Below are positions 2,044 to 24,972 of a DNA stretch of 64,000 nucleotides, piece by piece. This stretch comes from an uncultured bacterium. GTDB taxonomy: Bacteria; Fidelibacterota; UBA2242. The stretch is from contig CAZPRY010000007.1 of assembly GCA_964589175.1 (NCBI GenBank), positions 52,938-116,937 of the forward strand. Reading direction: 5' to 3'. The notes beneath the pieces are model-generated. The model was not told the DNA's origin and did no database searches. It worked only from the letters and a program-made list of their open reading frames with translations. Both the position numbers and the translations under genes were made by a program. The stretch's first letter is position 1, and each line of letters begins with the position of its first letter.

Positions 2044-2048
2044 CGGGA

Positions 2049-3932: not shown

Positions 3933-4529
3933 TTATTGCGCTTCCGTCCGGTAAAGCTGATGTTCGCAAATATAGGCCTCTACCGCAGGGTTGACCAGGT
4001 AGCGGATCGACTCTCCGCACCGTAGTTTCTCCCTGATCCGGCTGGAGGAAATTTCGATCACCGGCGATTGTATGAATTGCACTTCCGCCAGGAATTCCGG
4101 CTGTACGCGGCCGGGATCGAAGCCGGGGCGAGGAGCCACCAGAAGTGTGACGCGTCTCAGTATTTCCTGCGGTTGACGCCACCTGTGCAACTCCATCAAA
4201 CTGTCGCTGCCGATCAGAAAATAGAAATCCTCGCGGGATAAATGATACACACGGTTGATTGCATTGATCGTATCGATGGTGTAGGAGATGTCTGCGCGGT
4301 CGGCTTCCAGCGTGGACAGTTCGAAGCGCGGATTACCGGCAATCGCCAGTCTGACCATCGCGACTCGATGCTGAATTGCGCTGCAGTCCTGAGACGACTT
4401 GTGCGGCGCCAGATATGCCGGTAAAAATAGAATTTTATCCAGTCCGAACTGATCTAATAGCGACTCCGCAATTATCGCGTGCGCAATATGGGGAGGATCG
4501 AAGGTTCCGCCGTACAGACAGAGGCTCAT
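3933..4529 (-). CDS. nadD: Nicotinate-nucleotide adenylyltransferase
   Basis: 198 aa. The N-terminus LYGGTFDPPHIAHA is the (H/T)xGH nucleotidyltransferase motif characteristic of NadD, and there is a C-terminal SSSRIR motif. Confidence 0.85.
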   Translation of the reverse strand: MSLCLYGGTFDPPHIAHAIIAESLLDQFGLDKILFLPAYLAPHKSSQDCSAIQHRVAMVRLAIAGNPRFELSTLEADRADISYTIDTINAINRVYHLSREDFYFLIGSDSLMELHRWRQPQEILRRVTLLVAPRPGFDPGRVQPEFLAEVQFIQSPVIEISSSRIREKLRCGESIRYLVNPAVEAYICEHQLYRTEAQ

Positions 4530-5329
4530 TGGGGAGACTTCTTTTCCTGTTCCTTCTGAATTTTCTTCTGCTCTTTATCCAGGGCTCGTTTCAGGACCAT
4601 CAGTTTGTCTTTCCTGGCCGTCAAATCTTCTTTCGCCTGCAGATCGCCGAGCAGAGTTTCATACTCCTCAAATTTCCGCAGATGGATCAGACACAGCGCC
4701 TTGTCGAGTTTGGCAGGTATCGCCCATTGGCTGTCGTAATACGTGGCGAGTAAATTATCGAAGTAAATAATAGCCGATTCCCATTCCTGAAGTTTGATAT
4801 AGAGAACCCCGGATTCATAATTTTTGCGCGCCAGTTTATTGCGTATATCCCGAATCTTCTCTTCAACCTCGCTGCGATATTTACTCTGCGGGTAAGAATC
4901 CAGAAATTCCTGGAGTGACTGCAAGGCCCGCTCGGTATTGGTCTGATCGCGTTGATACCGGGGAGATAAATTATAGTAACAACGGGCTATTTTATAGGCT
5001 CCGTCTTCCGCCAGCGGGCTGTAGCTGTAGCGCTCCGTCAGGGCCTGGTATTCGGAAATCGCCAGTAAATAGTCTTTTTTCTGAAAGTAACTCTCGCCGA
5101 CATAATATTGAGCGTCATCCGCCAACTCGCCGCCGGGGCTGTTCAGCAGCACCAGGTTGAAACTCTGGATGGCCTTCTCCCAGCGCTTCTTCTTGAATTG
5201 CTCCATGCCCTGTTCATAGTATTTCGTGTAGTCGCTGAAGGCCTGGGGCTTGACATCCGCACAGCGCATGAAAATCAGGGCAAACAGACCTGCCAGTAAA
5301 CCCGTAAGATACCGCTTCATTTTTATCAT
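4526..5329 (-). CDS. TPR-repeat outer-membrane assembly factor BamD-like protein (YfiO family)
   Basis: Signal peptide followed by TPR-like repeats with a BamD-like pattern (YYVGESYF...AISEYQALTERY...YPQSKY...). It ends in a K/E-rich tail. It overlaps the nadD start by 4 nt. Confidence 0.6.
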   Translation of the reverse strand: MIKMKRYLTGLLAGLFALIFMRCADVKPQAFSDYTKYYEQGMEQFKKKRWEKAIQSFNLVLLNSPGGELADDAQYYVGESYFQKKDYLLAISEYQALTERYSYSPLAEDGAYKIARCYYNLSPRYQRDQTNTERALQSLQEFLDSYPQSKYRSEVEEKIRDIRNKLARKNYESGVLYIKLQEWESAIIYFDNLLATYYDSQWAIPAKLDKALCLIHLRKFEEYETLLGDLQAKEDLTARKDKLMVLKRALDKEQKKIQKEQEKKSPQ

Positions 5330-5382: not shown

Positions 5383-6309
5383 CTAGAACGCCAGATTGAG
5401 GCTGACACCGCGCAACGGATTACGCTGGCGATAGTCAGTGATCAGGCCGAGGTGCCAGCTGACCTGGGTTTCCCCTTTAAATTTTTTGGCCGCGATATTA
5501 GCGTCGAAGGCGCTGATCAGGTGGTTAAACATCAGGACAGTCACAAAATTGGTCGCCATCTTGAGCGCATCGTTTGATTCTTTACGCTGGGTCAAATAAT
5601 CATTCCGGTAATCATTCATATATAACGTATCTGGTTCGGTTCCATTATTCTTTACTCCGAAATCATCCCAGCCACCGGCAAACTGGTCGTATTTCCCGAT
5701 ATTCTCGTAAAAATCGCGAGTCTTGATTGGGGTGATATCATCGCTACCGCTCGCCATCAGGGAAACCCAGCCCGGAACATACTTATTCAGCGTGTCCGCC
5801 TGGGCCATATATTCCTGTTCGTTGTATTCGACGTAGATGTGATGCGATCCGAAATTCTTACTATGGTATCCGCTCGGGCCGGACATGGTGTTCCAGAGAT
5901 TATTGGCCCATTCCTGGATGTTCCAGTGGGTGTCGGCGTAATCCTCAAAATCTCCTTCCAGGCGCAGACCGCGGGATTTGCTACCGTACCACAGGCCCCA
6001 GCCGGCGGCCTCAATCCCGGCATAGATCAAGGCTCTCCACTTGGCCCCGGCGTACAATTGGCCGGTACCCGGAACTACGGCTGAGAACAGAAAGGCCCGT
6101 CCGGGAGATTTGATATATTGAAAAGTGGTATCAACACCCTCATCGGATTCCCCGTACTTCAGCTGGTTTATGAATTGGCCGCGCAGGACCGAATTCTGAT
6201 CCTGATTTGCGGGGAGTTCCTGGGCCCCCGCCAAGCTCAGGATCAAGGCAACTGTCAAAACAATCAGGGTTAGTATTCTGCTGCTCATCTTACCTCCATC
6301 AAAGTCCAA
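5383..6309 (-). CDS. Secreted hypothetical protein with a conserved SAVVPGTGQLYAG motif (DUF5683-like)
   Basis: An N-terminal signal/TM segment is followed by FLFSAVVPGTGQLYAGAKWRALIYAGIE, which resembles the DUF5683 core. The alternative start at 6288 (MSSRIL) avoids an 11-nt overlap with the upstream gene. Confidence 0.55.
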   Translation of the reverse strand: MDFDGGKMSSRILTLIVLTVALILSLAGAQELPANQDQNSVLRGQFINQLKYGESDEGVDTTFQYIKSPGRAFLFSAVVPGTGQLYAGAKWRALIYAGIEAAGWGLWYGSKSRGLRLEGDFEDYADTHWNIQEWANNLWNTMSGPSGYHSKNFGSHHIYVEYNEQEYMAQADTLNKYVPGWVSLMASGSDDITPIKTRDFYENIGKYDQFAGGWDDFGVKNNGTEPDTLYMNDYRNDYLTQRKESNDALKMATNFVTVLMFNHLISAFDANIAAKKFKGETQVSWHLGLITDYRQRNPLRGVSLNLAF

Positions 6310-9300
6310 ATAAAATTGTTATGTATGTTCGCCATTCACCGCCATAAATATGCGCCTCATCGCGCCTGTCGATAAGCTCAAATTTATCCAATCCGTAGAC
6401 AAAGTCTAGACTTATTGCGGTCGGATAGGCATAAAATGAAAATCCGCTGAAACGCAACTGCATGCCCACGTCGGTTTTAAAATCCGCCGTGATCTGTTGA
6501 ATAACATCCGCCGGGCTATTCGCAAATTTCTTCCAGCCCAGTTGGGGATAGTCCTCAACCTGGCTCCAGGCATTACCGGTCTCCACGTACGCGCCGACAA
6601 ATGCGTTCTGCAGATTGAATACGCCCAATTGCATGTTTTTTTCAACAAACAGCGGGTGGCGCACGGTGTAATGAAAGGTCAACAGATTACGCCCTTCAAT
6701 GCTGTAAAACGGGTAGCCTCTCAGCCCCGGCAGCCCTCCGGCGAAGAAATGGAAAAACGAATCCACATCCGGCATGCTGATCCAACCCAAACGCCATTTG
6801 AAATTTCCGACCATCTTTTTTAGAACGGGATACTTATGGTAAACGTTCCCTTCATGATCGATTTTCCAGTAATAATTTTTACGAAAAATTTCCCTCAGGG
6901 TGCCGAAATCCTCATAAATCCCGAATTCCTGCATGAAATTGTCGAAGTTGCGCGAAATGTTGGTGGTCATTTCGAAGCCGTTATCGGGATTCGTCTCGGA
7001 GTTGACATTGGGCAGGATTTTGCGCTTGTTCCAGCTCAGTTTCAGATAACTACCGCGATAGTAATCATAGGTAAATCCGGAACTGTAAATTCCCTGAGAT
7101 TCGATCCTCTCATCCGTGCTGGTCCGGTAACGGGCCAGCCCTGCGTCGAGACGCAGGTGGTTGAAACCGTCGATCGGGCGCGATACACCGAAGATGGCCT
7201 CGGTCAGGTAGAAGGTATAATCGGTATTGATCGGGTAACCCTTCCAGGTCAGCTTCTGGTTGAGAATATTGCGGCTGATATTGTAAAATTCGAGGAAAAA
7301 GGTGGGCTCCCACTGATGATACTCGAGCGTTACGAATAGATCACGGTCGCCGATCCGGTTCAACGAGGCCGTACCGAAAATGCTGAAGCGCTCCAGAATC
7401 TCCGAGGAATAGAAATAGAAACCCGGTTTGGCGGTACCGTAATCGATCATCAATTTGGGTAGAATGAAAATCTTGGCGAACTGGTCCCGGTACTTCTGGG
7501 GTTCGGGGAAATCCTGCTGCACCACGGCCATCATCGCCGGCTCCTGCATCGGCTCCGGAAAGTACACGGCCTCTTGCGCCGCAAGTACGGCAACCGTATC
7601 CAGCCGCGCGACTTTAAAAGCCGAATTATCGAACAGCGCAAAAACCAGCTGCCCTTGCCGGTTGACGGCCGGCATCATCGCGCCGCCGACAACATTGGTC
7701 AGCAGTTCCGTCTCCCCCGTCGCCAGTAAGCGCCGGTAGATGTTGAAAATCCCGGTCTGGTCGGAGGCGTAATACAACCATCGGCCGTCAGGGCTGTAGT
7801 AGGGATTGCGTGTATCCCAGTCGTGCCCGTCGAAAATTGTCATGGAATCCGATTCCAGGTGATACACGGAGATGTCGCGGCCGTGATTCAGGGTGTAATC
7901 GAAGGCAATCCGTTTCCCGTCCGGCGCCCAGTGGACGGAGAAGAGTTCGATACCGTCGTCAAAATGGGTCAGCTGCTTTTCTTCCCGGGATTCGAGGTCA
8001 AGCAGCACCAGGTTGGAAGTGCCGTCTTCCCCGGTGATGAACACGATTTTCTTGCCGTCGGGTGAAAGCGCGGGCAGATAAGCCCGGCGAAATTTAGTGA
8101 TCTGCTTTTCTTTTTTGGTGTGTAAATCATAGTGGTAAATATCAAAATAGACCGAGCCATGTTTATTGGGCTTGCTCTTTTTGGAATAATAAAGGTATTT
8201 GTTATCGGGTGAAAGACTGATCCGCGAATGCACTTCCGCCTTCAGCAGCCGGTCTTCGTTCGTCACCGCATTATGGACATATAACGAGGTCTGGCCGTAG
8301 TAATCACGACCTTTGTTGGAGAGATAATAAATCAGCGTGTCGGCACCCCATTCGGGATAGATCTGGGTTGTGCCATCCCCCAGAATTATTTCTCCGCTCA
8401 CCGCATGTTGCCGGATTCGTTCGGTCTTTGCGGCGTAATCTTTTTCAAGCGTGTTTTTCCAGTCCCGGTAAATTTCGTCAGCCGATACTCCGGTAGCCTT
8501 CTTCAGAGCGCTGGTAACAGAAAATTGCAGCGGTGCCGACAACAGGTCCATCATCCGCGGGCAAATTTCGGAACCGAAGCGCCCGGTCAAATATCGTACA
8601 AACGCATAGCCCTGGTTGTACACCGATTCGTTGCCGATGCCTCTTTTACCGAAGCTGCCCATTTGGTCGAGGCTCAGCAGGTGATGATTCAAAACACGGT
8701 CGCGCAGGAGCATGTCCCGGTGCGTATCCCAGAGATCGTTGGTCGATCCCGGGTACTGGAACTGCGCCACACCTTCCGCCAGCCACATCGGCATCACAAG
8801 GCCCGGCAGCGGGTAGGAGGCGATCACGCGCGGATAACCGTAAACGACATCGTCCCGCTTTTCATCCTCGTAGTCGATGACCTGCAGGTAGGCAGCCGGA
8901 ATACTGCGCGGTAATTTCATCGCCTTTTGCAGGCTGACGATATGGGCGAATTCATGCGCGATTACGTCTCTCAGCCACTGATGGTTGCCGCGCAGCAGGA
9001 AGTCCAGCGGCGTCGCCCAGAGCTCGATCTTATTGTCGTAATAATAGGTCGCGCCGTTCGAGTAATCATCATAATCCTTGACGTACAGGTGCGTCTTGGA
9101 ATCCGGTTCGAAATTGTAAAATGAAGTTATCGGACCGTAAACGGCCTCGCCGATTAGAGCCGTCTCTTTGGCGGTCCATTCCGCCCCTTCATGATAATGA
9201 ATTTTGAAGTGCGGAGTCTCGAAACTCAGCCAGTCCAATTCGGGATGATTATATCGTTCCTGAGCAAAGATTATAACCGTACCGATTAAAAGAGTCAATA

Positions 9301-9337
9301 TTGCAGATAGAATTTTCGGGAATATTTTTGCGATCAA
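6299..9337 (-). CDS. Omp85-superfamily outer-membrane protein with an N-terminal Peptidase_MA_2-like zincin domain and TolB/PD40 beta-propeller repeats, and no POTRA domains
   Basis: 1012 aa. Signal peptide; zincin motif HEFAH...WLAEGVAQF; PD40-like repeats (SPDGKKIVFI, WAPDGKRIAF, YSPDGRWLYYASD). The C-terminal barrel carries the Omp85 motif FAGGLPGLRGYPF. It is a paralog of the 25166-28276 protein. Confidence 0.7.
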   Translation of the reverse strand: MIAKIFPKILSAILTLLIGTVIIFAQERYNHPELDWLSFETPHFKIHYHEGAEWTAKETALIGEAVYGPITSFYNFEPDSKTHLYVKDYDDYSNGATYYYDNKIELWATPLDFLLRGNHQWLRDVIAHEFAHIVSLQKAMKLPRSIPAAYLQVIDYEDEKRDDVVYGYPRVIASYPLPGLVMPMWLAEGVAQFQYPGSTNDLWDTHRDMLLRDRVLNHHLLSLDQMGSFGKRGIGNESVYNQGYAFVRYLTGRFGSEICPRMMDLLSAPLQFSVTSALKKATGVSADEIYRDWKNTLEKDYAAKTERIRQHAVSGEIILGDGTTQIYPEWGADTLIYYLSNKGRDYYGQTSLYVHNAVTNEDRLLKAEVHSRISLSPDNKYLYYSKKSKPNKHGSVYFDIYHYDLHTKKEKQITKFRRAYLPALSPDGKKIVFITGEDGTSNLVLLDLESREEKQLTHFDDGIELFSVHWAPDGKRIAFDYTLNHGRDISVYHLESDSMTIFDGHDWDTRNPYYSPDGRWLYYASDQTGIFNIYRRLLATGETELLTNVVGGAMMPAVNRQGQLVFALFDNSAFKVARLDTVAVLAAQEAVYFPEPMQEPAMMAVVQQDFPEPQKYRDQFAKIFILPKLMIDYGTAKPGFYFYSSEILERFSIFGTASLNRIGDRDLFVTLEYHQWEPTFFLEFYNISRNILNQKLTWKGYPINTDYTFYLTEAIFGVSRPIDGFNHLRLDAGLARYRTSTDERIESQGIYSSGFTYDYYRGSYLKLSWNKRKILPNVNSETNPDNGFEMTTNISRNFDNFMQEFGIYEDFGTLREIFRKNYYWKIDHEGNVYHKYPVLKKMVGNFKWRLGWISMPDVDSFFHFFAGGLPGLRGYPFYSIEGRNLLTFHYTVRHPLFVEKNMQLGVFNLQNAFVGAYVETGNAWSQVEDYPQLGWKKFANSPADVIQQITADFKTDVGMQLRFSGFSFYAYPTAISLDFVYGLDKFELIDRRDEAHIYGGEWRTYITILFGL

Positions 9338-9355: not shown

Positions 9356-12300
9356 CTATCGAATTATCATTACTTTGACGATCTTACTGATCGATTCACT
9401 GCCCTGCTGCGCTTTTACAACGGCAAAATACACGCCGCTCTGAACGCCGGAGACATCCCAGACTGTTTCGTTATAATCACCGACGAGGGGATCTTCATCC
9501 GTTAGCGCAGCCACGAAATCTCCGGCCAGATCGTAGACCTGGATCGAAACACGGCAGGATTTCCGGACGAAATAGCGGAATGCCGTTTCGTTACCTTTTA
9601 CCGGATTGGGCCAATTGAAAACACGCTGCAGATCAAGCAGTTCGTCCGGCGGCGGAGCTTGCGTATCGGATTTAATCGAGATGGAAAAATTGCGCTGGGG
9701 ATTGCTGCCGTAGGCAGTCCACATAATATCCGTCAACTGCCCCGCAGAGAGTTTACGCGCATTCAACTGAGTGCCGGCGGCATCCACAGAAACGTGTACG
9801 ATCCCGTCGGGCGAATCCAGCAATAGGACGCTGTTGCCATTGTAGACGGGAAGCGTGACGGGGAAATTCGGGAGCAGCTGGCCCTTGCGGTCGAAGGCTG
9901 CAATGCCGACACCATGAATTCCGGCGAGGAGCGTCAGCCGCCCGGCGTCATCACAGCTTGTCAGCAGGTAAGGATCGAAATAACTGTAGTTGAATTGGTT
10001 CGGAATCGACGCCGGAAAATTGGCTTCCAATACCAATCGCTCTGTGAAGACGTAGATGTGCGCCGAATCGGCCAAGGCGATCTCGATTTTGTCATCTCCG
10101 TCGATATCCGCCAGGACCGGGAACGGGTAATAATTTTTCAGTGGATAGGAAAATTGCCGGATGTTTTCCGGTTCCGCCAAAGCTGCATCCAGAACGGTGA
10201 CGATTCTATCTTCCCCGCAAAGGACCACATCCGCCACGCTGTTGTCGTCCAGCCAGCCGACCACCATATCGCCGATCATCGTCAGGTCGACATCGGTCAG
10301 CAGTTGCAGCGCCAGCGGCGCAGTTTCCAGCAGGTATAATTCCCCTTCCCCGCTAACAGCGAAAACCTGATCGGCATCCCCTGCTAGTCGCGCAATAGGC
10401 TCCGGCACGGAAATCTGTTCCGGACCGTAGCGCAAGATATTTTGGTCCGTTGCCGAATCGTAGAATGAAAAGAGCGGCTTGCCATGGAGAATCATTGCAT
10501 TGGAAGTGAGCACTGCCGCCGGGAAGGACTCCCGGTTGGCGTATTGCAGCCGATTATTGAGCAGGCGATAACGGTACAGACTCAGGCTGCCGTCAGTCTC
10601 CACAGTCGGGATATAGACGGAAATCTCGCCCGCATCGACGGCCAGCAGCGGCGTAGCAATGGTCGACAGATTGCTCGTAAAGCCAGTCGAGATCCGTTGC
10701 AGAATCATCCCCTGAGAATCGATCAGGAAAAGACTGTCCCGGTCCACCACAACGAAGTTCAAGACTCCGTCTTCCGCTCCTGTATCGAGCTGCAGCAGCC
10801 CCAGAATTTTTCGATCCTGACCCAATGGAAGGGGAAAATTTCCAAGGTTCCGATCCAGATGAATACGGAAATTCATCTGTTCGCCGGCGGGACCAATTTG
10901 ATCAATCGCGATCCCGGTGTAAGCATTGGCATAACTGCGCGACGAAGGTTGGGTGGAGTTCGTCAATCCGACACTGCGGATGGAGTCTTCCGGATATTCG
11001 GGATTCAAATCCCAGAAGCCGTCATTTCCGGCAAACCACGGATCGAAGTACCAGCCGATGTCGACATTCGCGCCGAAGAGCTGGCCTTCATAGCCAAGGT
11101 CCTGGGCGCCGTCGCCTTCCTCGAGATCAACCCCGCGGTGCTCCCGGTCGATATTGACTTTATTGGCTGAAAGATTTGCCTCGATCACCGATTCGTCGAT
11201 GTGCCAGATCAGCAATCCCGATCCGGGCAACCCGGCATCATACCGCGGCACGGACAGCAGGACTCCCGTTCGCGCCGAGAATTCCGCCTGCAGTGAATCG
11301 CGGATCAGCGGGAAAATCAGCGGCCATCTCTCCTCGCCGTTGTCTTTGTAAATTTTATACTGAATACTGTCGAGACTGACGCCCGGGCGCAGTTCGGCGT
11401 TGCGGTTCTCTACCAGGAAATATTCGTTTTCATCGATCGGAACCTTCCAGATGGATGAAGTCGTCGCCGTCTCGGCGTTTTGCAGCGTGATCTCCTGATC
11501 CGTCCCGGCCGGCAGCGGTTCTTCCCAACCCATAAAAACGCGTGACCAGGCCGTCGGAAGAGGCGGAATCAAACCGTTCAGATTGGCGGAACCCTGGTCC
11601 ATCAAACCGAACTTGCCGACGCCGGTTTCACCGGTTTCGGTATTGTACAATCCCGGCAATCCCAGATAGAAGCCGGTCATGAAGGCGAAGGTGCCGTTCA
11701 AGCCGATCTGGTAGGCACATGGTTCGTCGGCTCCGCCGAAAACTTCCTCCCAGTTCGAGAACAGCAGATGGTTTTGGGTTTCCGGTAAAATCATACCGGA
11801 TACAATCAGATCATTGCCGCCGTCGACCGGGATACCCGCAAACGACGCATTTCCCGGAGCAGCAAAGAGGGCCAGGTCACCGGTATTCAGATAAACCGAG
11901 GGAATATCGTAGGGCGTCGGATCCAAATCCAGATCGAAATCCTGCCCCACCCCGGCGTGGAATACAACCACGAGATCATAATCCGCGAACTGCAAATCCG
12001 CGTCCGCCAGTTGCACGGCTTCGTAAAATAGTTGCGCCAGGCGGGTATCCACCGAGTCTTTCACTAGAAACGGGTGGTAATATTCCATTTTACGGGGCAG
12101 CTGATAAGTCAGCGCGTCGTCGAGCGGATAGACCTCCGAACGCAGCGTATCAAGAAGCAGATGGCCTTTGGACACATGGCCGTAGTAGTTGGAAAGCGCC
12201 CGGATATGATCCTTGAAATAAGCCCTGTTATGCGGCGGTGGATCGACCACCAGGGAGGCGCAGACCGTGTCCTGGGCGGTGGTTAAAAACCGGCCGTCGC

Positions 12301-12496
12301 CGGTCGTGTAATCGCTTTCATCCGGGATAAAAGAAACCCGTAACGCACAGATTGATATGTTATTACTATGTGTCTGAACTTCTACAAGCCGCTTCCCCGT
12401 TTGCAGGGAAGGGCTAATTCGCCGCGTCGCGGAATCATTCGCCGCGAATAAAATATGGCATACCAGCAGAGCAAAAATAAGACGATGTATTTTCAT
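9356..12496 (-). CDS. Large secreted M6 (immune inhibitor A)-like pseudo-peptidase with a T9SS C-terminal sorting domain
   Basis: 1046 aa with a signal peptide. It matches the M6/InhA-conserved blocks VVFHAGVGQ and GLLIWHIDES. At the position of the catalytic HEFGHDLGLPDEYD it has FAFMTGFYLGLPGLYN, so the HExxH is lost. The C-terminal ~90 aa (NWPNPVKGNETAFRYFV...VSIQVYDLAGDFVAAL...SGVYFAVVKAQ) fits the T9SS type A CTD (TIGR04183-like). Confidence 0.65.
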   Translation of the reverse strand: MKIHRLIFALLVCHILFAANDSATRRISPSLQTGKRLVEVQTHSNNISICALRVSFIPDESDYTTGDGRFLTTAQDTVCASLVVDPPPHNRAYFKDHIRALSNYYGHVSKGHLLLDTLRSEVYPLDDALTYQLPRKMEYYHPFLVKDSVDTRLAQLFYEAVQLADADLQFADYDLVVVFHAGVGQDFDLDLDPTPYDIPSVYLNTGDLALFAAPGNASFAGIPVDGGNDLIVSGMILPETQNHLLFSNWEEVFGGADEPCAYQIGLNGTFAFMTGFYLGLPGLYNTETGETGVGKFGLMDQGSANLNGLIPPLPTAWSRVFMGWEEPLPAGTDQEITLQNAETATTSSIWKVPIDENEYFLVENRNAELRPGVSLDSIQYKIYKDNGEERWPLIFPLIRDSLQAEFSARTGVLLSVPRYDAGLPGSGLLIWHIDESVIEANLSANKVNIDREHRGVDLEEGDGAQDLGYEGQLFGANVDIGWYFDPWFAGNDGFWDLNPEYPEDSIRSVGLTNSTQPSSRSYANAYTGIAIDQIGPAGEQMNFRIHLDRNLGNFPLPLGQDRKILGLLQLDTGAEDGVLNFVVVDRDSLFLIDSQGMILQRISTGFTSNLSTIATPLLAVDAGEISVYIPTVETDGSLSLYRYRLLNNRLQYANRESFPAAVLTSNAMILHGKPLFSFYDSATDQNILRYGPEQISVPEPIARLAGDADQVFAVSGEGELYLLETAPLALQLLTDVDLTMIGDMVVGWLDDNSVADVVLCGEDRIVTVLDAALAEPENIRQFSYPLKNYYPFPVLADIDGDDKIEIALADSAHIYVFTERLVLEANFPASIPNQFNYSYFDPYLLTSCDDAGRLTLLAGIHGVGIAAFDRKGQLLPNFPVTLPVYNGNSVLLLDSPDGIVHVSVDAAGTQLNARKLSAGQLTDIMWTAYGSNPQRNFSISIKSDTQAPPPDELLDLQRVFNWPNPVKGNETAFRYFVRKSCRVSIQVYDLAGDFVAALTDEDPLVGDYNETVWDVSGVQSGVYFAVVKAQQGSESISKIVKVMIIR

Positions 12497-12563: not shown

Positions 12564-13787
12564 CTAGAATTGAATATTCAGTGAAAACAGCATGGTATTC
12601 TGACGGGGATGCCCGGGATCGCCGGCGGTGTAACCGAAATCGAATCCCAGCCCGGCATAGCGCAAGCCCGCACCGAAGGTTGGCACCGGATACTTGTCTT
12701 TCATCAGGATCTTGCCCACTTTGTCATAGATAAATCCCAAACGCAGGGCAAACAGATTCGAATACCAGTATTCAACACCGAAATTATGCGTTAACTTTTC
12801 CAGCTCGCGGCCCAGAGAACCGTCTTTGGTGTTGCCGTCTTCGTCTTTTTCACCGAGGCCGTCCGCCTCCGAATCATGCAGCAACAGCCAGTCGTCAACC
12901 CAGGAAGTGAAAAGCCCAACATACCAATCGTCGGAATGCGCCTCTTCATAGCGACCGTCCTTGTTGTAAACGCCACCACTGAATTTATGGCCGTTTTCAT
13001 CATATCCGCCGATCTTCCCGTCGCCGTCAATGTCGCGATTAGGGTAGGAGGAGACCAATAATTTATTGATGTCGTAGGACACCGTGATTTTGTTGTAATT
13101 GCCTTTCATCGTATAAGCCAGCCCCATCTTCAGGTTGGTTGGCATCGGATCGGCCTGGGATACATCGATAAATGAAATTTTCGGTCCGATATTGGAAACC
13201 GAGGCGCCGAAAGTCAGGTTCTTCAACAGGAATTGTTTTTTCATATATCCCACATCAAAACCGAAATTCGTGGAGTAGCCCTTACCCTTTTCCTTACCGG
13301 CCAGAATATCGGTCAAATGCTGATAGATCATTTTCACACCCACGCCCACCGACGAAGTACGTGTGAGCTGGGTTCCGTATGAAGCTGTAAAAGCCATCAT
13401 GTATGAGGCAAATGTGCCGAGATAATTAGCGCGTTCATCCATGGCCACCTGCTCACCCAGGTTCATAATTGTGATATTACCGCCGATGGTGCCGATATCC
13501 CGGAAGAAAAAATGGCCGCCCAGGAAATCGTAGTAGATATCCGAGGCCAGGTTCGGCAGCCAGTTGGTGTGCATCAGGGCCGCTTCGCGTCCCCGTAAAA
13601 AGCCCAATCCGGCCGGATTCCAGTAGCTGGCATAGGCATCATCGGCAATGGCGACACCCGATTCACCCATCCCGCCTGAGCGGGCTCCCGGATTAATTAA
13701 CAGCCAGATGGCCCCGGCTTCACTCTGTGCCAGGGACAAACTGAACATCGCGCATAAAACAAGTGCAAGAATCAGTATTTTTTTCAT
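12564..13787 (-). CDS. Outer-membrane beta-barrel protein, PorV/PorQ-like (T9SS-associated family)
   Basis: 407 aa. Signal peptide followed by an N-terminal GARSGGMGESGVAIADDAYASYWNPAGLG block. The rest shows an alternating hydrophobic beta-strand pattern, with a C-terminal ...LFSLNIQF ending in Phe. It lies immediately upstream of the CTD cargo gene. Confidence 0.6.
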   Translation of the reverse strand: MKKILILALVLCAMFSLSLAQSEAGAIWLLINPGARSGGMGESGVAIADDAYASYWNPAGLGFLRGREAALMHTNWLPNLASDIYYDFLGGHFFFRDIGTIGGNITIMNLGEQVAMDERANYLGTFASYMMAFTASYGTQLTRTSSVGVGVKMIYQHLTDILAGKEKGKGYSTNFGFDVGYMKKQFLLKNLTFGASVSNIGPKISFIDVSQADPMPTNLKMGLAYTMKGNYNKITVSYDINKLLVSSYPNRDIDGDGKIGGYDENGHKFSGGVYNKDGRYEEAHSDDWYVGLFTSWVDDWLLLHDSEADGLGEKDEDGNTKDGSLGRELEKLTHNFGVEYWYSNLFALRLGFIYDKVGKILMKDKYPVPTFGAGLRYAGLGFDFGYTAGDPGHPRQNTMLFSLNIQF

Positions 13788-17794: not shown

Positions 17795-19000
17795 TTAACG
17801 TCTTTTAAATTGTTTAAACCACAATTCACCCGTTGTAACCCCCACGTGCAACGAGATAAGGTTTTCGTTTCCGAATTGACTGCTGAATCCATCCCGGCGG
17901 GCTGCAATCAGAGCAATGTCCAAACGATTCAGACCTCCATAAAAGGGAATCCCTAATCCGACGGACACGCCGGTTTCTTTCAGGGGATCGGACTGGGAGA
18001 ATATCTCCGTCTTCTGATACAAACCAGCCCTGTAAGATAATTTTTGCAGCGCCTTCCTGTCTTTCCGAGGGGATGGACTCTTCTCGATTCCGATACCAAT
18101 CACATATGCATTTTGGGCATCCACCGGCTCATTCAGGTAGAACTCCTGAAACATGGAACCGGGCGCCGTATAATAACGGAAATCCGCCACAACAAGCAAG
18201 TCGTGCGGCAGTAGCCGGGCGCAGCCCAGGGAAAATGTCGAGGGATAATCCAGAGACCGGTTTTCCTGGGTACTGTCCGGACCGTACTGATAATCCAACA
18301 GAAAATCATATTGGAAATTAATATTCTGATCCCAGTAGGCCGCAATGGTCGTTTTTTGTGGGCGATCCGTCCAGGCCAGTCCAAGGCCGGTTTGCACTCC
18401 CCGCAGGTTATAGCGTCTCTGCTGGGAGATATCGATATCGTCGTCCTGCATGAGATCCACGTCATGCGTTGTGGCGATGTTGCCGTAGAAAAACCTGCCT
18501 ACGAGGCCCAGGCTCAGGTTCGGGGACAGTTTATAGCCGAATCCCGTGTAAAGTTCGGAAATTCCACCAACCGTCTTCTTGGTCGATTGATAGGTATATA
18601 CCGTATCCGCATATGGCGCGTCACCGGTATAAATTTGCTCACTCGACATGCGTGTTACCGGGCGCATTCCCATGGCAAAGCCCAACTTCTTTCCAATCGG
18701 CATTTTAAAAGCAAAGCCCATGAAACGGGTCATCGATCCCGTATAGTCCCGCTCGGCGGCATTGACAAACTGGGTGTTCAACTGCCCCTGCATGGAGGTT
18801 GTCAGAAAACCGTGCCACAATGCCGGGCCCAGGGTATTCAGACCGATCGAGTCGCGCGCGGCGCTTCCCGAAAAGCCCATTCCGATATTACGTACCGGAA
18901 CCGAAGGGGAACCCATTCCGAATCCGTACGACGAGTAGATCGAATTCTGAGAAAACAGAAAACCGGTGATCAGGATAACGGCAAGGACAATTTTACGCAT
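17795..19000 (-). CDS. Outer-membrane beta-barrel protein, a second PorV/PorQ-like paralog
   Basis: 401 aa. Signal peptide followed by an N-terminal GFGMGSPSVPVRNIGMGFSGSAARDSIGLNTLGPALW block resembling the 12564-13787 protein. The alternating beta-strand composition is the same. Confidence 0.5.
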   Translation of the reverse strand: MRKIVLAVILITGFLFSQNSIYSSYGFGMGSPSVPVRNIGMGFSGSAARDSIGLNTLGPALWHGFLTTSMQGQLNTQFVNAAERDYTGSMTRFMGFAFKMPIGKKLGFAMGMRPVTRMSSEQIYTGDAPYADTVYTYQSTKKTVGGISELYTGFGYKLSPNLSLGLVGRFFYGNIATTHDVDLMQDDDIDISQQRRYNLRGVQTGLGLAWTDRPQKTTIAAYWDQNINFQYDFLLDYQYGPDSTQENRSLDYPSTFSLGCARLLPHDLLVVADFRYYTAPGSMFQEFYLNEPVDAQNAYVIGIGIEKSPSPRKDRKALQKLSYRAGLYQKTEIFSQSDPLKETGVSVGLGIPFYGGLNRLDIALIAARRDGFSSQFGNENLISLHVGVTTGELWFKQFKRR

Positions 19001-19001
19001 G

Positions 19002-20264
19002 CTAATTCGTCTCTTTAATGGTAATTACTTGCAGATAGGGCGCCCGGGCCGTGTCCGTTTGGGCGGACGCATACAGACTCAGAACCGACAGATCCAGGGT
19101 CGAAGGTGACGACCAGAGCAGGAATCCAAAATTCTTCTGTTCGGTACTCATATATTGCTGAACCGTATAACTGATCTTGAAAATCGCCTCACCATCGCCG
19201 GGCTTCAGCGAACAGGTGGCGATATAATCGCTCGTACTTGTCGTCAACGCCTCATCGTACCATTCGGTCGAATCCAGCTGCGTCAGGTATAGGTAAAAAT
19301 TCTCGTTGTAATTGAAGGTCTGCGTTGTATCCACTTTAAGGTGAAGGATGGCTTCTCCGACGATTTCGTTTTTATCCGTGAGCGCATCCGTGAGATCGAT
19401 TTTTAGAAAGGAACGGTAAGCCTGCCCCTTGCTGACATAGCTATGGCCGGGGTCCGGTGCAATGTCAAAGAAGCGTATTACGGAAATATCTTCCGAAGCA
19501 TAGGTCGTCGTGGAGACCGTATCGCCCTCATAAAAGAAATCCGCGATCAGCGCCGGCGCATAGTAGGAATTTTCGGCGGAGGTAAAGGCCTGCATCAGCG
19601 GTTCGGTCGTATCCGCAGCCTGCAGCAACAAGCCGTAATTATACAGGGAATCGCCATTATACCAGTCATCGTACCAGCCCCGGAAAACAGAATTCGGGAT
19701 TTCAATTTCGATGGAATCATTATTAGAGTAGGCAAAAGTACCGAGCAGTTCCCGATCAAAACCCTCGAGTGACCAGGTGTCCGGAAAAGTATCCTGCGCC
19801 CAGTTGACATGACTATCGGAAGAGAGCAGGTATACCGCAATTTCGTGGTTGTGGACATTCAGCGAATCGTAAGGCAATTCCGATTCGGTGCGAATCACAA
19901 AAATGGAACTTATCAGCGAATCCACCAGGCTACTCAATCCCGTGAAATCGTTAAAACGGATCAGCGCATAAGCCGACGAATGTTCATCTCTGCCGGCCAG
20001 CAGCCGCAGACTCGACTTCAGTTTGGGGGTCAATATCTGAGTTGAATCGACGATGTGATCGGCTTCAATCCTGACGTCCGAAAACAAAAGGGGGGCGGTA
20101 TTGGTCTCCTCATACGGTATTTGTTCCGAACAGGAGGGCATTAGAGACAGAGCCGCGAACGCAATCACCAGGGCACCACGTACGATTCGGTTTCTATTTT
20201 CGGATTGAAGCAGCTCCCGACTGCCGCCGGATTTATATACTCTCGATAATCTTAATAATTTCAT
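19002..20264 (-). CDS. Hypothetical lipoprotein
   Basis: Signal peptide with a possible lipobox (LSLMPSC). The protein is acidic, Ser/Thr/Tyr-rich and likely periplasmic or surface-exposed. It is tightly packed in an operon with the flanking genes. Confidence 0.55.
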   Translation of the reverse strand: MKLLRLSRVYKSGGSRELLQSENRNRIVRGALVIAFAALSLMPSCSEQIPYEETNTAPLLFSDVRIEADHIVDSTQILTPKLKSSLRLLAGRDEHSSAYALIRFNDFTGLSSLVDSLISSIFVIRTESELPYDSLNVHNHEIAVYLLSSDSHVNWAQDTFPDTWSLEGFDRELLGTFAYSNNDSIEIEIPNSVFRGWYDDWYNGDSLYNYGLLLQAADTTEPLMQAFTSAENSYYAPALIADFFYEGDTVSTTTYASEDISVIRFFDIAPDPGHSYVSKGQAYRSFLKIDLTDALTDKNEIVGEAILHLKVDTTQTFNYNENFYLYLTQLDSTEWYDEALTTSTSDYIATCSLKPGDGEAIFKISYTVQQYMSTEQKNFGFLLWSSPSTLDLSVLSLYASAQTDTARAPYLQVITIKETN

Positions 20265-23004: not shown

Positions 23005-24972
23005 ATGAGATGTTTAAAAACCAGCATTGTTTTCTTCCTAATTGCCTTGCCCCTGATCGGAATACGGGCGCAGTATGACGAGGACTGGCTCGATCGGGAG
23101 ATCCAGACCAAGCAGCGGCTTCTGCAGGACCGCCGGGCGCTGGCTAAACTGGCCGCGAGTACCAACGCCGCCGATTATGACATCGGTTATTACGGTCTCG
23201 ATCTCCATGTCAACGTCGATTCACAGACAATTGCCGGCTCCGTTACCATTCGTGGAAAATCGCGTATAGATTCTTTAAACCTTGTTGAACTGGACCTCGC
23301 CAGCGGACTGAATGTCCATGCCGTGACTGGCCAGGCTGTCTCTTATCAACACGGCAACAACATTCTGCAGATTCGGCTGCCTGAAGCGCTCTCAACAGGT
23401 GAAGGATTTGAATTCACCATCGATTATTCGGGTTCGCCTTTAACGGGCGGGTTCCAGGGTTTCAGTTTCGGTAGCTACAACGGCAGCCCGATAGTATCCA
23501 CCCTCAGTCAGCCCTATTATGCCTACGGCTGGTTTCCCTGCAAAGACCGACCCAACGACAAGGCCGATTCCGTCGATATCACCCTCACCGTCCCGGCCAA
23601 CCTGGAGGCCGTCGCGAACGGGACCTTGAAGAAAGTCGAAAATAATTCCGACGGCACGCGCACCTATTTCTGGCAGGAGCGCTACCCGATCGCCACCTAT
23701 CTGATTTCACTGGCCGTCTCGGAATATACTTCCTGGCAAGATACATACGTCTCACAGGACAGCAGCCTGACGATGCCGGTGATGTACTGGATCTATAAAG
23801 ACATGCCCTCCCCTTACACAACCGACTTGGCCTTGACCCCCTCCATGATTTCATTCTTTTCAAGTATTTGGGGCGAATATCCCTTCATCAAGGAGAAATA
23901 TGGCCAGGCACAGTTCTCCTGGGGCGGCGGCATGGAGCACCAGACCTGCGCCAGCATGGGCAGTTTTAACGAAATGCTGATCTGTCATGAACTGGCGCAT
24001 CAGTGGTGGGGCGATATGGTCACCTGCGCCAACTGGAAAAACATCTGGCTCAACGAAGGTTTTGCGCGCTATGCGGAAGCGCTCTGGCGTGAGCATATTG
24101 ACGGTAAAACGGGCTTAGAAGCATATATGCAGATCCTCAACCGGCCGCAAAGCTGGCAGAACAGCAGTGTCTATATCACCGACACAACCCGGGTCAGCGC
24201 CATCTTCAATCGCATCGTTTACGATAAAGGCGCCTGGATTCTGCACATGCTTCGCAAGATCGCAGGCAAGGAAAATTTCCGCGCGATTTTTCTGGCATAC
24301 CGCGAGCGACACTCCATGGGCGCCGCCGACACCGAAGATTTTCAGCGCGTCTGTGAAGAGGTCAGCGGCCTCGATCTTGACTATTTCTTTTCGGAGTGGG
24401 TTTACGGCCTCGGCCAGCCGCATTACCAGGTGAGCTGGCACCGGGTCCCGGCCTCCGACGAGCACTGGACTGTCAGCGTCCGAATCCAGCAGATTCAGAC
24501 CACGGCAACTTATTTCTCGATGCCGATCGAACTCTATCTGCAGACCGAAACGGGCGATACGATCATCACCGTCTGGAACAGCCGACGCCTGCAGGACCAC
24601 GAATTCCAGATCAACAGCAAACCGCTGGAATTGATTATCGATCCCGATAACTACATCCTGAAAAGCGTCGCCTATTCGACAGTCGATCCCGATCTGGTCA
24701 CAAATCCGACGGAATTCGAACTGTCCGGGGCTTACCCGAATCCGTTTAACGGCTCCACCCATTTCCGGCTCTACCTGCCCCATGACATCCTGGGGCAACT
24801 GCGCGTCTACAACCTGGCCGGTCAGCAAGTGGCCTTGATCGGGGACGGCCGGTTTCGATCGGGATATCGCACCTATCAATGGTCGCCGACGACCCAAGCA
24901 TCCGGAATTTACTTTATCCGGCTGGAATCCGACGATCAATTTCTGGAACGGAAGGTGTTGTACCTGAAATAA
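23005..24972 (+). CDS. M1 family aminopeptidase (aminopeptidase N-like) with a T9SS C-terminal sorting domain
   Basis: Signal peptide. GGMEHQ (a GxMEN variant), HELAHQWWGD, and WLNEGFARY providing the third Zn ligand. The C-terminal ~85 aa (AYPNPFNGSTHFRLYLP...LRVYNLAGQQVALI...SGIYFIRLESD...KVLYLK) is typical of a T9SS CTD. Confidence 0.85.
   Translation: MRCLKTSIVFFLIALPLIGIRAQYDEDWLDREIQTKQRLLQDRRALAKLAASTNAADYDIGYYGLDLHVNVDSQTIAGSVTIRGKSRIDSLNLVELDLASGLNVHAVTGQAVSYQHGNNILQIRLPEALSTGEGFEFTIDYSGSPLTGGFQGFSFGSYNGSPIVSTLSQPYYAYGWFPCKDRPNDKADSVDITLTVPANLEAVANGTLKKVENNSDGTRTYFWQERYPIATYLISLAVSEYTSWQDTYVSQDSSLTMPVMYWIYKDMPSPYTTDLALTPSMISFFSSIWGEYPFIKEKYGQAQFSWGGGMEHQTCASMGSFNEMLICHELAHQWWGDMVTCANWKNIWLNEGFARYAEALWREHIDGKTGLEAYMQILNRPQSWQNSSVYITDTTRVSAIFNRIVYDKGAWILHMLRKIAGKENFRAIFLAYRERHSMGAADTEDFQRVCEEVSGLDLDYFFSEWVYGLGQPHYQVSWHRVPASDEHWTVSVRIQQIQTTATYFSMPIELYLQTETGDTIITVWNSRRLQDHEFQINSKPLELIIDPDNYILKSVAYSTVDPDLVTNPTEFELSGAYPNPFNGSTHFRLYLPHDILGQLRVYNLAGQQVALIGDGRFRSGYRTYQWSPTTQASGIYFIRLESDDQFLERKVLYLK

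What the first reader, a model, noticed from the sequence alone, without database searches (positions are those of the whole stretch)
9356..12496. M6/InhA-like domain with the zinc-binding HExxH replaced (FMTGF): a secreted pseudo-protease with a T9SS CTD
Blocks flanking the M6 active site are conserved: VVFHAGVGQ, GLPGLY aligning to GLPDEY, and GLLIWHIDES. At the position where M6 peptidases have HEFGH there is FMTGF, so both His ligands and the catalytic Glu are lost. A catalytically dead peptidase scaffold exported with a CTD would act as a binding or adhesin module. This alignment rests on my recall of InhA motifs.
Basis: partly seen in the sequence, partly recalled or inferred. Interest (0 to 1): 0.6.

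Follow-up and report, generated by a model that had tools for sequence, protein, structure and literature searches.

The report
Dead M6-like protease beside PorV
This gene encodes a secreted protein built on a zinc-protease scaffold whose catalytic residues are all gone; NCBI already curates the family under that description, but it is almost always encoded right next to the type IX secretion genes porV (and often porU), so it probably works with the secretion machinery and is not a free-standing adhesin.

Summary
Window 9356..12496 (-) encodes a 1046-aa protein with four parts: a Sec signal peptide, an M6/InhA (thuringilysin)-like domain, an FG-GAP-type beta-propeller and a type-A T9SS C-terminal domain (CTD). 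FMTGF (aa 272-276) aligns with HExxH of authentic M6 enzymes and of InhA (PDB 4YU5). G282 replaces the third ligand, Asp. There is no HExxH anywhere in the protein.

The loss is family-wide: 0/113 homologs, 0/79 genomic orthologs and 0/139 distant representatives have HExxH at this site. Even so, this domain is the best-conserved part of the protein (52% mean identity against 22% for the propeller).

NCBIfam NF052323, "T9SS-dependent M6-like inactivated metalloprotease", matches end to end at 519.6 bits. That is below its 600-bit cutoff, which orthologs in Ignavibacteriales, KSB1 and Calditrichia pass.

What I add is the context. PorV lies directly upstream in 70/71 loci. A bona fide PorU precedes PorV in 10 loci. 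An Omp85/TamA-type barrel fused to an HExxH peptidase and propellers follows in 58/61 loci, and its HExxH is intact in 65/65. DUF5683 then follows in 55/55.

The protein is best read as a non-catalytic binding protein functionally tied to PorV/PorU. "Generic adhesin" is not supported. I found no publication on the family.

The parts
9356..12496 (-). Whole gene: 1046-aa T9SS-dependent M6-like inactivated metalloprotease (ortholog of NF052323 scoring below its cutoff)
   Evidence: ORF. NF052323.1 E=1.7e-155, 519.6 bits, aa 8-1046 against model 5-1043/1043. AlphaFold2 model pLDDT 87.8, pTM 0.85.
12440..12496 (-). Sec signal peptide (aa 1-19, MKIHRLIFALLVCHILFA|AN)
   Evidence: Read directly from the sequence. 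Predicted N-terminal helix aa 3-19. The cleavage site is inferred, not computed.
10856..12367 (-). M6/thuringilysin-like domain, catalytically dead (aa ~44-547), with an insertion at ~aa 370-418 relative to authentic M6
   Evidence: hhalign against Bacillus M6: aa 90-547, probability 99.1%, E=4.3e-19. BLASTP against Phyllobacterium M6: E=3e-18 with a 50-residue gap opposite aa 376-425. Mean pairwise identity in the family is 0.52, the highest of the three domains.
11651..11683 (-). Pseudo-active site FMTGFYLGLPG (aa 272-282), in place of HExxHxxGxxD
   Evidence: Alignments. Column statistics: G275 and G279 are (near) invariant, M273 in 103/113, F276 in 101/113. No HExxH at this site in 79 loci or in 139 representatives. 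Motif definition from PMC12237041.
11600..11602 (-). M299, invariant Met of FGLM, aligned with the Met of InhA SLMSGGS (candidate metzincin Met-turn)
   Evidence: Invariant in A1 and A2 and aligned. Its assignment as the Met-turn is an inference.
9692..10834 (-). FG-GAP/VCBS-type beta-propeller (aa ~555-935)
   Evidence: All-beta segment with pLDDT mostly above 90. Foldseek PDB hits are beta-propellers, headed by BT4663 and BT4673. Homologs carry precomputed PF13517/PF01839 hits. Weak match to the YesW propeller. Least conserved domain, 0.22 mean identity.
9359..9613 (-). Type-A T9SS C-terminal sorting domain (aa 962-1046)
   Evidence: PF18962 28.2 bits (cutoff 27) and TIGR04183 30.4 bits (cutoff 23). 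The family profile hits the PorU CTD in PDB 6za2_A at E=1.5e-4.
12564..13787 (-). Upstream partner gene: PorV-family outer-membrane protein, 67 nt upstream
   Evidence: NF033709 256.6 bits (cutoff 90). The PorV equivalog NF033710 gives 191.6 bits (cutoff 250). Orthologous neighbours pass the PorV equivalog cutoff in L080 (261.6) and L067 (252.5). Directly upstream in 70/71 loci.
6299..9337 (-). Downstream partner gene: signal peptide + HExxH (HEFAH, aa 128) Peptidase_MA_2 + TolB/Tricorn-type propellers + Omp85/TamA-like C-terminal barrel
   Evidence: HExxH intact in 65/65 orthologs. The C-terminal profile hits the TamA barrel 8us4_A at E=2.4e-5, including the FFAGG..RGY motif. Present downstream in 58/61 loci.
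5383..6309 (-). DUF5683 protein, the fourth gene of the conserved module
   Evidence: PF18935 32 bits (cutoff 26.7). Follows the MA/propeller gene in 55/55 loci.

Best explanation
The gene encodes a catalytically dead member of the M6 (InhA/thuringilysin) metzincin lineage. It is made with a Sec signal peptide and exported across the outer membrane by the type IX secretion system through its type-A CTD. It is a divergent Marinimicrobia (Fidelibacterota) ortholog of NCBIfam NF052323. Shown: the zinc site HExxHxxGxxD is replaced by FMTGFYLGLPG, so both His, the catalytic Glu and the Asp ligand are all lost, and the same loss holds throughout the family. The dead domain is nevertheless the most conserved part of the protein. 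The gene lies in a conserved module, (porU)-porV-M6-like-[Omp85-barrel/HExxH-peptidase/propeller]-DUF5683, in Marinimicrobia, KSB1, LCP-89, Calditrichia and Ignavibacteriales. Inferred: the protein acts by binding, not by cleavage. The preserved metzincin cleft and the propeller would hold a peptide or glycan ligand at the cell surface. Its conserved role is tied to the PorV shuttle and the PorU sortase, either as a PorV-docked accessory of cargo processing or attachment, or as a dedicated housekeeping cargo. It is not a lineage-variable adhesin.
For: Identity: NF052323 matches full length at 519.6 bits. Syntenic orthologs in other phyla score 586-775 bits. M6 homology and active-site register: using comparators validated by PF05547 and PDB 4YU5. 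Family-wide loss: no HExxH in 120 homologs, 79 loci or 139 50%-identity representatives. Lineages keep different remnants (HQxxH, Asp only, second His only), which fits ancient inactivation followed by drift of the ligands. Purifying selection on the dead domain: 0.52 mean identity (0.60 around the site) against 0.22 for the propeller. Internal control: the neighbouring MA peptidase keeps HExxH in 65/65 orthologs. T9SS link: the CTD passes curated cutoffs. PorV is directly upstream in 70/71 loci and is a bona fide PorV by the equivalog cutoff in L080 and L067. PorU (743-982 bits, cutoff 420) precedes PorV in 10 loci. In L053, L057 and L066 the module is just porU/porV plus the M6-like gene, followed by unrelated genes, so the tightest linkage is to porV/porU. 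The flanking genes differ between phyla.
Confidence: 0.7

Rival explanations
1. Ordinary T9SS cargo. The protein would be a surface adhesin or ligand-binding protein with no special relationship to the secretion machinery. Adjacency to porV would only reflect co-expression of an abundant cargo with its shuttle.
For: It has a generic type-A CTD that scores like an ordinary cargo CTD. It contains an FG-GAP propeller, a common binding module. The NCBIfam name calls it 'T9SS-dependent', which describes a cargo and not a component.
Against: Strict synteny across at least five phylum-level lineages with different flanking genes. The strongest conservation is in the dead catalytic core and not in a variable binding surface. 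The 80 loci come from 80 different assemblies with no sign of paralog expansion. The family has at least 150 clusters at 50% identity, all full length.
Confidence: 0.2
2. Pseudoenzyme partner of the neighbouring live metalloprotease. The dead M6-like protein would regulate, chaperone or present substrate to the Omp85-anchored HExxH peptidase/propeller protein encoded immediately downstream.
For: A dead and a live metalloprotease gene are adjacent in 58/61 loci. HExxH is intact in 65/65 orthologs of the neighbour and in 0/79 of the M6-like gene. The intergenic gap in the window is 18 nt.
Against: In L053, L057 and L066 the M6-like gene occurs with porU/porV but without the MA/propeller gene. 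Topology argues against direct contact, although this is an inference: N-terminal domains of Omp85 proteins are normally periplasmic, whereas a T9SS substrate ends up outside the outer membrane.
Confidence: 0.15
3. Still an enzyme. The scaffold would have acquired a non-canonical catalytic or metal site from other conserved residues.
For: Invariant polar residues survive in the domain (H89, H180, D192, D197, E239, H432, D434, E460, D462), and the region around the former active site is extremely conserved.
Against: Several of these residues (HAGVGQ, WHIDE) are also conserved in authentic M6 enzymes, so they are ancestral scaffold features and not a new site. The residues at the former ligand positions are hydrophobic or small and differ between lineages. 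No alternative motif was identified.
Confidence: 0.07
4. A functional replacement for the PorU sortase in lineages that lack it (my own working hypothesis midway through the analysis).
For: It occupies a porV-adjacent position like porU, has a similar size, and combines a protease-like domain with a CTD.
Against: A bona fide PorU (743-982 bits, cutoff 420) is encoded in the same operon, directly upstream of porV, in 10 loci. The M6-like protein also lacks any catalytic residues.
Confidence: 0.03

Closest known systems
NCBIfam NF052323.1 (T9SSA_dep_M6i), 'T9SS-dependent M6-like inactivated metalloprotease'
   Same: End-to-end match (aa 8-1046 against model positions 5-1043 of 1043, E=1.7e-155). 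Same architecture (dead M6-like domain, propeller, type-A CTD) and same synteny as members that pass the cutoff.
   Different: It scores 519.6 bits, below the 600-bit trusted cutoff. All Marinimicrobia members tested (411-547 bits) fall below it, whereas Ignavibacteriales, KSB1 and Calditrichia members pass. NCBI sources therefore name the homologs only 'T9SS type A sorting domain-containing protein'.
Immune inhibitor A (InhA) and the M6 peptidases (thuringilysins; Pfam PF05547, TIGR03296; PDB 4YU5/4YU6)
   Same: Homologous catalytic-domain scaffold. It shares the HAGVGQ block, the active-site helix position, the Gly of HExxHxxG, LGLP, the Met of ...LM..GS and the WHID(E) block.
   Different: All three zinc ligands and the catalytic Glu are replaced (F272, M273, F276, G282). 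It has a ~50-residue insertion (aa ~376-425). It is fused to an FG-GAP propeller and a T9SS CTD. It is below the TIGR03296 cutoff (72.1 against 110.8) and gives no PF05547 hit. Foldseek did not recover 4YU5.
PorZ (T9SS attachment-complex component of Porphyromonas gingivalis)
   Same: Secreted through a type-A CTD; carries a beta-propeller; genomic association with the porU/porV attachment genes. The full-length model's best PDB matches are BT4663 and BT4673, the proteins named as architectural analogues of PorZ (PMC5121618).
   Different: PorZ has two seven-bladed propellers and no protease-like domain (PMC5121618). Sequence similarity to the PorZ model is confined to the CTD (12.6 bits, E=0.032). 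The TM-scores to BT4663 are only 0.12-0.22. CTD retention, A-LPS binding and PorQ pairing are untested here.
PorU (T9SS sortase / C-terminal signal peptidase)
   Same: A large, CTD-bearing protein with a protease-type domain, encoded next to porV. The family profile's only PDB sequence hit at E<0.01 is the PorU CTD.
   Different: Unrelated catalytic domain: the NF033707 PorU model does not hit the M6-like protein. There are no catalytic residues. It co-occurs with a genuine PorU in the same operon.

Membership tests
NCBIfam NF052323 (T9SS-dependent M6-like inactivated metalloprotease) | Whole-protein score at or above the curated cutoff of 600 bits | tested here: not met
   519.6 bits, E=1.7e-155, full-length alignment. 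Syntenic orthologs score L080 770, L067 775, L051 643, L084 638 and L074 606, whereas the Marinimicrobia proteins P0041 and P0118 score 547 and 411.
NCBIfam NF052323 (T9SS-dependent M6-like inactivated metalloprotease) | Architecture: M6-like domain with the zinc site inactivated, plus a type-A T9SS CTD, over the full length of the model | tested here: met
   aa 8-1046 against model 5-1043/1043. HExxH replaced. CTD passes TIGR04183 and PF18962.
NCBIfam NF052323 (T9SS-dependent M6-like inactivated metalloprotease) | Orthology with members that pass the cutoff (same conserved gene neighbourhood) | tested here: met
   The order porV, M6-like, MA/propeller, DUF5683 is shared by the window and by loci whose proteins pass the cutoff (L051, L067, L074, L080, L084).
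Peptidase family M6 (InhA/thuringilysin; PF05547, TIGR03296) | Sequence homology of the catalytic domain | tested here: met
   TIGR03296 E=6.8e-20 (below its trusted cutoff). BLASTP E=3e-18. hhalign probability 99.1%, E=4.3e-19. PF05547 gave no hit at E<=1 for this protein.
Peptidase family M6 (InhA/thuringilysin; PF05547, TIGR03296) | Zinc-binding and catalytic motif HExxHxxGxxD (two His, catalytic Glu, third-ligand Asp) | tested here: not met
   FMTGFYLGLPG at aa 272-282 and no HExxH anywhere in the protein. Motif definition from PMC12237041. It is therefore a homolog of M6 peptidases but not a functional M6 peptidase.
Peptidase family M6 (InhA/thuringilysin; PF05547, TIGR03296) | Three-dimensional fold superposable on InhA (PDB 4YU5) | tested here: inconclusive
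T9SS type-A cargo / CTD proteins (TIGR04183, PF18962) | C-terminal type-A sorting domain above the curated cutoffs, plus an N-terminal Sec signal | tested here: met
   TIGR04183 30.4 bits (cutoff 23) and PF18962 28.2 bits (cutoff 27) at aa 962-1041. A hydrophobic N-terminal signal is visible in the sequence.
T9SS attachment-complex components (PorU/PorZ type) | CTD retained in the mature protein and stable association with a PorV/PorQ barrel | not testable with these tools
   This needs proteomics or pull-downs. The only supporting evidence is genomic: porV is adjacent in 70/71 loci and porU is in the operon in 10 loci.
T9SS attachment-complex components (PorU/PorZ type) | Sequence membership of the PorZ (NF052228) or PorU (NF033707) equivalog | tested here: not met
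   PorZ model: 12.6 bits against a cutoff of 260, in the CTD only. The PorU model gives no hit.
Bacteroidota-type BAM accessory subunits (BamG, H, I, J, K, M, P) | Homology or shared fold with a described subunit | tested here: not met
   The described subunits have FadL-like, carbohydrate-binding, six-bladed-propeller lipoprotein, PPIase or periplasmic folds and none has a CTD (PMC12611786 and PMC12578637). NCBIfam gives no Bam hit for this protein.

The most novel reading that the evidence does not exclude
The dead M6-like protein would be a previously unrecognised, widely conserved accessory subunit of the T9SS attachment and sorting apparatus in FCB lineages outside the classical Bacteroidia. 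It would dock on PorV through its CTD and use the preserved metzincin cleft and/or its propeller to hold cargo linker peptides or the anchoring glycolipid for the PorU sortase, a PorZ-like role. It might act together with the co-encoded Omp85-anchored HExxH peptidase and the DUF5683 protein as a four- or five-gene sorting module.
Probability: 0.25. Interest if true: 0.7.

Novelty: new member of a known kind. Interest (0 to 1): 0.42.

Why it matters
On its own, the finding rediscovers a curated family, NF052323, and the window protein is a divergent member that current NCBI thresholds do not name. The context is the useful part. A pseudo-protease whose dead active-site region is under the strongest constraint is encoded in or next to the porU-porV operon. 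This holds across Marinimicrobia, KSB1, LCP-89, Calditrichia and Ignavibacteriales. T9SS mechanism has been worked out almost entirely in Porphyromonas and Flavobacterium, and I found no paper on this family. If the protein is part of cargo sorting or attachment, it would show how the T9SS operates in the abundant, mostly uncultured marine and sediment FCB phyla. It would also add a clear bacterial example of a pseudoenzyme recruited into a secretion machine. On the practical side, the results suggest that the NF052323 cutoff excludes a whole phylum of syntenic orthologs.

Tried and rejected
1. 'M6-like protein replaces PorU'. Rejected: a genuine PorU sits upstream of porV in the same operon in 10 loci.

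2. 'Its CTD is specifically PorU-like, implying a retained CTD'. The lead came and from PorU C-termini hitting NF052323. Rejected: an HMM of family CTDs scores PorU CTDs at 15-36 bits and an ordinary cargo CTD in the window at 22.7 bits.

3. 'It is one of the new Bacteroidota BAM subunits'. This was prompted by BamG-like and BamD genes nearby. Rejected after reading PMC12611786 and PMC12578637. BamD and BamG linkage is also confined to Marinimicrobia.

4. 'The ORFs downstream in L053, L057 and L066 are PorZ/PorQ'. Rejected: they are RNase R, LptG, PurM and a MATE transporter.

5. Direct sequence search of the protein and of the family profile against the PDB found no M6 enzyme, only the PorU CTD and a weak YesW propeller match. 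InhA was reached only transitively, through the Phyllobacterium M6 protein.

7. Literature searches for T9SS in Marinimicrobia or Fidelibacterota, for T9SS pseudo-proteases and for DUF5683 returned nothing relevant.

8. A decaying pseudogene. Rejected: the ORF is intact and conserved in more than 270 species genomes, and the replacement motif is itself conserved.
Full report
**1. The observation**

Window 9356..12496 (minus strand) is one uninterrupted ORF of 1046 aa.
- VVFHAGVGQ at aa 177-185
- FMTGF at aa 272-276
- GLPGLY at aa 280-285
- GLLIWHIDES at aa 427-436

The protein has no HExxH or HxxEH anywhere. The N-terminus (MKIHRLIFALLVCHILFA|AN) looks like a Sec signal peptide. The C-terminal 85 residues pass the curated cutoffs of both type-A T9SS sorting-domain models: PF18962 at 28.2 bits against 27, and TIGR04183 at 30.4 bits against 23.

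**2. Is it really M6-like, and which residues sit in the metal-ligand columns?**

Pfam PF05547 gave no hit at E<=1. NCBIfam's M6 domain model TIGR03296 matched at E=6.8e-20, 72.1 bits, which is below its trusted cutoff of 110.8.

To see the columns, I fetched authentic M6 genes by tblastn against plasmid records:
- A Bacillus toyonensis gene annotated "M6 family metalloprotease domain-containing protein", containing HELGHSFGLPDLY.
- A Phyllobacterium ORF containing HEFGHFLGLPDLYDT.

Both pass the PF05547 gathering score of 22, at 33.6 and 109.5 bits. The Phyllobacterium protein in turn finds InhA, PDB 4YU5/4YU6, at E=8.7e-22.

The comparisons with the window protein and its family profile were:
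- BLASTP of the window protein against the Phyllobacterium M6: E=3e-18.
- hhalign of a 34-sequence family profile against the Bacillus M6: probability 99.1%, E=4.3e-19 over 316 columns, covering query aa 90-547.
- hhalign against InhA residues 159-366 as printed: E=2.4e-4.

All three use the same register:
- VVVFHAGVGQ lies over InhA LMVIHAGVGQ.
- GTFAFMTGFYLGLPGLYNTETG..GVGKFGLM lies over GVFAH(E/A)FGHDLGLPDEYDT....WSLM.

Thuringilysins (the M6 family) use the metzincin motif HExxHxxGxxD, with Asp as the third ligand (PMC12237041). Here H becomes F272, E becomes M273, H becomes F276, the structural G279 is kept, and D becomes G282. The invariant M299 aligns with the Met that follows the motif in InhA; it is a candidate Met-turn, which is an inference.

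**3. Structure**

AlphaFold2 with a 96-sequence alignment gave a confident full-length model (pLDDT 87.8, pTM 0.85). It has:
- a mixed alpha/beta N-terminal domain (aa ~44-547),
- an all-beta propeller region (aa ~555-935),
- a beta-sandwich CTD.

**4. Already known**

NCBIfam holds an equivalog model, NF052323.1, "T9SS-dependent M6-like inactivated metalloprotease". It aligns with the window protein from end to end (aa 8-1046 against positions 5-1043 of 1043; E=1.7e-155), but at 519.6 bits, below its cutoff of 600. Scores for orthologs from other lineages:

| Ortholog | Lineage | Bits |
|---|---|---|
| L067 | Bacteroidota-labelled MAG | 775 |
| L080 | Ignavibacteriales | 770 |
| L051 | KSB1 | 643 |
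| L084 | KSB1 | 638 |
| L074 | Calditrichia | 606 |
| L053 | Bacteroidota-labelled MAG | 599.9 |
| L081 | unclassified | 586 |
| P0041 | Marinimicrobia (by conserved synteny with the window) | 547 |
| P0118 | Marinimicrobia (by conserved synteny with the window) | 411 |

The window protein is a divergent member that scores below the cutoff. Public sources name its homologs only "T9SS type A sorting domain-containing protein", mostly from Candidatus Marinimicrobia, Neomarinimicrobiota or Fidelibacterota. I found no paper on the family.

**5. The loss of the active site is family-wide and ancient, and the domain is under selection**

None of the 120 best homologs has an HExxH anywhere. In 113 full-length homologs the replacement motif is itself conserved as [LF]-M-x-G-[FY]: G275 is invariant, M273 occurs in 103/113 and F276 in 101/113.

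A scan of one genome per species found relatives in at least 272 genomes. In the 79 loci that could be aligned, none has HExxH at the site. An exhaustive profile search of 1.84 billion representatives gave 1584 hits at E<=1e-30, and the best 150 all score at least 552 bits. Among 139 new representatives, none has HExxH at the site. Their patterns were:
- no ligand residue left: 71
- only the third-ligand Asp: 44
- only the second His: 15
- HQxxH (both His kept, Glu to Gln): 5

The catalytic Glu is missing in every member, and different lineages keep different ligand remnants. This fits a single early inactivation followed by relaxed constraint on the ligands.

The domain as a whole is not relaxed. 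Mean pairwise identity is 0.52 for the M6-like domain and 0.60 for aa 170-330 around the dead site. It is 0.22 for the propeller and 0.48 for the CTD. A decaying pseudogene is excluded.

**6. Genomic context**

In the window, a PorV-family gene (12564..13787) ends 67 nt upstream. It scores 256.6 bits on NF033709 (cutoff 90) and 191.6 bits on the PorV equivalog (cutoff 250). A 1012-aa gene (6299..9337) starts 18 nt downstream.

Across the 80 loci:
- A PorV homolog is directly upstream on the same strand in 70 of 71 loci that have enough upstream DNA.
- The 1012-aa homolog follows in 58 of 61.
- A DUF5683 gene follows that in 55 of 55.

The flanking genes outside this block differ between phyla. 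They are SHMT, nrdR and trm112 in Marinimicrobia, gcvP and accC in KSB1, and nuoN in Calditrichia. In L080 and L067 the upstream gene passes the PorV equivalog cutoff, at 261.6 and 252.5 bits against 250. It is therefore PorV itself, not PorQ or PorV2.

In 10 loci the gene directly upstream of porV is a bona fide PorU sortase, scoring 743-982 bits on NF033707 against a cutoff of 420. These loci are L034 and L050 (LCP-89), L080 (Ignavibacteriales), L084 (a KSB1 single-cell genome), four Bacteroidota-labelled MAGs (L057, L066, L067, L072), and L081 and L086 (lineage uncertain). The fullest form of the module is therefore porU-porV-M6-like-MA/propeller-DUF5683.

In L053, L057 and L066 the module stops after the M6-like gene, and RNase R, LptG or PurM follow. 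The tightest linkage is thus with porV and porU.

**7. The constant downstream neighbour**

The downstream protein has a signal peptide, an HExxH site (HEFAH, aa 128; weak Peptidase_MA_2 match) and TolB/Tricorn-type propellers. A profile of its C-terminal 430 aa hits the TamA barrel (PDB 8us4_A) at E=2.4e-5, through the FFAGG..RGY loop-6-type motif. Many orthologs end in ...LLFGF.

It is therefore an Omp85/TamA-type outer-membrane barrel whose N-terminal part is a metallopeptidase plus propellers instead of POTRA domains. Its HExxH is intact in 65 of 65 orthologs. That makes it a useful internal control, because in the same operons selection keeps one zinc site and has discarded the other. A paralog lies at 25166..28276 (BLASTP E=3e-32), and that paralog's C-terminus has a TamL-like hit.

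**8. Hypotheses tested and dropped**

- Replacement of PorU is refuted by co-occurrence with PorU in one operon.
- A specifically PorU-like CTD is not supported.
- Identity with a Bacteroidota BAM subunit is not supported. The Marinimicrobia neighbourhood does contain BamD (4526..5329; TIGR03302 128 bits) and a BamG-like gene (17795..19000; NF053685 177 bits against a cutoff of 250). However, the described BamG-K, BamM and BamP have unrelated folds and no CTD (PMC12611786 and PMC12578637), and BamD linkage is confined to Marinimicrobia.

**9. Most likely mechanism**

Shown: the protein is a Sec- and T9SS-targeted protein on an M6-derived scaffold that cannot bind zinc or catalyse hydrolysis in the canonical way. 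It is conserved, with strongest constraint around the former active site, and is encoded with PorV and often PorU.

Inferred: it acts by binding. The former substrate cleft and/or the propeller would hold a peptide or glycan at the cell surface, in functional association with the PorV shuttle and the PorU sortase.

Whether it is a stable accessory of an attachment complex or a dedicated housekeeping cargo cannot be decided here. A PorZ-like role is attractive because PorZ combines propellers with a retained CTD and is architecturally BT4663-like (PMC5121618). But sequence similarity to PorZ is limited to the CTD, and the structural similarity is generic.

The remaining rivals are:
- a pseudoenzyme partner of the neighbouring live peptidase, weakened by the loci that lack that gene and by the expected topology;
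- a non-canonical enzyme, for which there is no positive evidence.

**10. Verdict**

The window protein is a new, divergent member of a known kind. Interest is moderate. The finding itself is a rediscovery. The conserved porU-porV-pseudoprotease module outside the model Bacteroidota is, as far as I could find, unpublished, and it is testable.

Noticed in passing
window 6299..9337 (-); paralog at window 25166..28276 (+): Proteins of ~1000 aa that fuse a signal peptide, an HExxH Peptidase_MA_2 domain and TolB/Tricorn-type propellers to a C-terminal Omp85/TamA-like barrel (FFAGG..RGY motif, C-terminal ...LFGF/LFGL). In effect this is an Omp85 protein with a protease and propellers in place of POTRA domains. 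HExxH is intact in 65/65 orthologs next to the M6-like gene. NCBIfam has no curated equivalog for it.
   Followed up: partly
window 5383..6309 (-): A DUF5683 protein (PF18935, 32 bits) always follows the MA/propeller gene (55/55 loci). Its function is unknown, and the only paper that mentions the DUF is irrelevant.
   Followed up: partly
window 17795..19000 (-) and 19002..20264 (-): A BamG-like FadL-family protein (NF053685, 177 bits against a cutoff of 250, full length) lies next to a DNRLRE-domain protein that could be a BamH counterpart. With BamD at 4526..5329, this suggests that Marinimicrobia have the Bacteroidota-type BAM complex, as PMC12611786 predicts for FCB phyla.
   Followed up: partly
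L019, L081, L084 (M6-like ortholog, aligned active-site position); also 5 of 139 representatives: A KSB1-related subgroup keeps both His residues but has Gln for the catalytic Glu (HQF[GA]H) and Ser for the third ligand. Other lineages keep only the Asp (SNFGS...D, ASFGS...D) or only the second His (IMFGH). These may be frozen intermediates of active-site decay.
   Followed up: partly
L034, L050, L057, L066, L067, L072, L080, L081, L084, L086 (~500-4700 in each locus): A bona fide PorU sortase gene lies directly upstream of porV, giving porU-porV-M6-like operons. PorU in several of these loci carries an N-terminal extension of roughly 240-280 aa ahead of the region that matches the PorU model.
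   Followed up: partly
window 23005..24972 (+): An M1-family (aminopeptidase N / LTA4 hydrolase-like) peptidase with a type-A T9SS CTD (TIGR04183, 35 bits). It is an ordinary T9SS cargo in the same window and served as the comparison CTD.
   Followed up: partly
NCBIfam accessions NF052323, NF052324 and NF052325: The M6-like model is numbered consecutively with 'putative T9SS sortase PorU2' and 'putative type IX sorting system protein PorV2'. This suggests the curators built them as one batch around T9SS sorting genes, but I could not see any documentation.
   Followed up: no
model mebde473d4976 (window aa 44-560): Foldseek against the PDB returned no hit better than E about 1 for a confident model. 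Yet profile methods link the sequence to InhA, and 4YU5 is in the PDB. Either the model departs from the InhA fold or Foldseek's prefilter missed it. Unexplained.
   Followed up: partly
window 36002..37189 (-) and 37131..39254 (-): An MlaE-family permease with an N-terminal MlaB/STAS-like extension is followed by a 707-aa protein that combines an ABC_trans_aux lipoprotein domain with DUF481 and DUF3078 (outer-membrane-like). This may be a lipid-transport cluster.
   Followed up: no
window 54754..57270 (-): An 838-aa fusion of a TIGR03960 B12-binding radical SAM protein with its usual partner, the TIGR03936 radical-SAM-associated protein.
   Followed up: no
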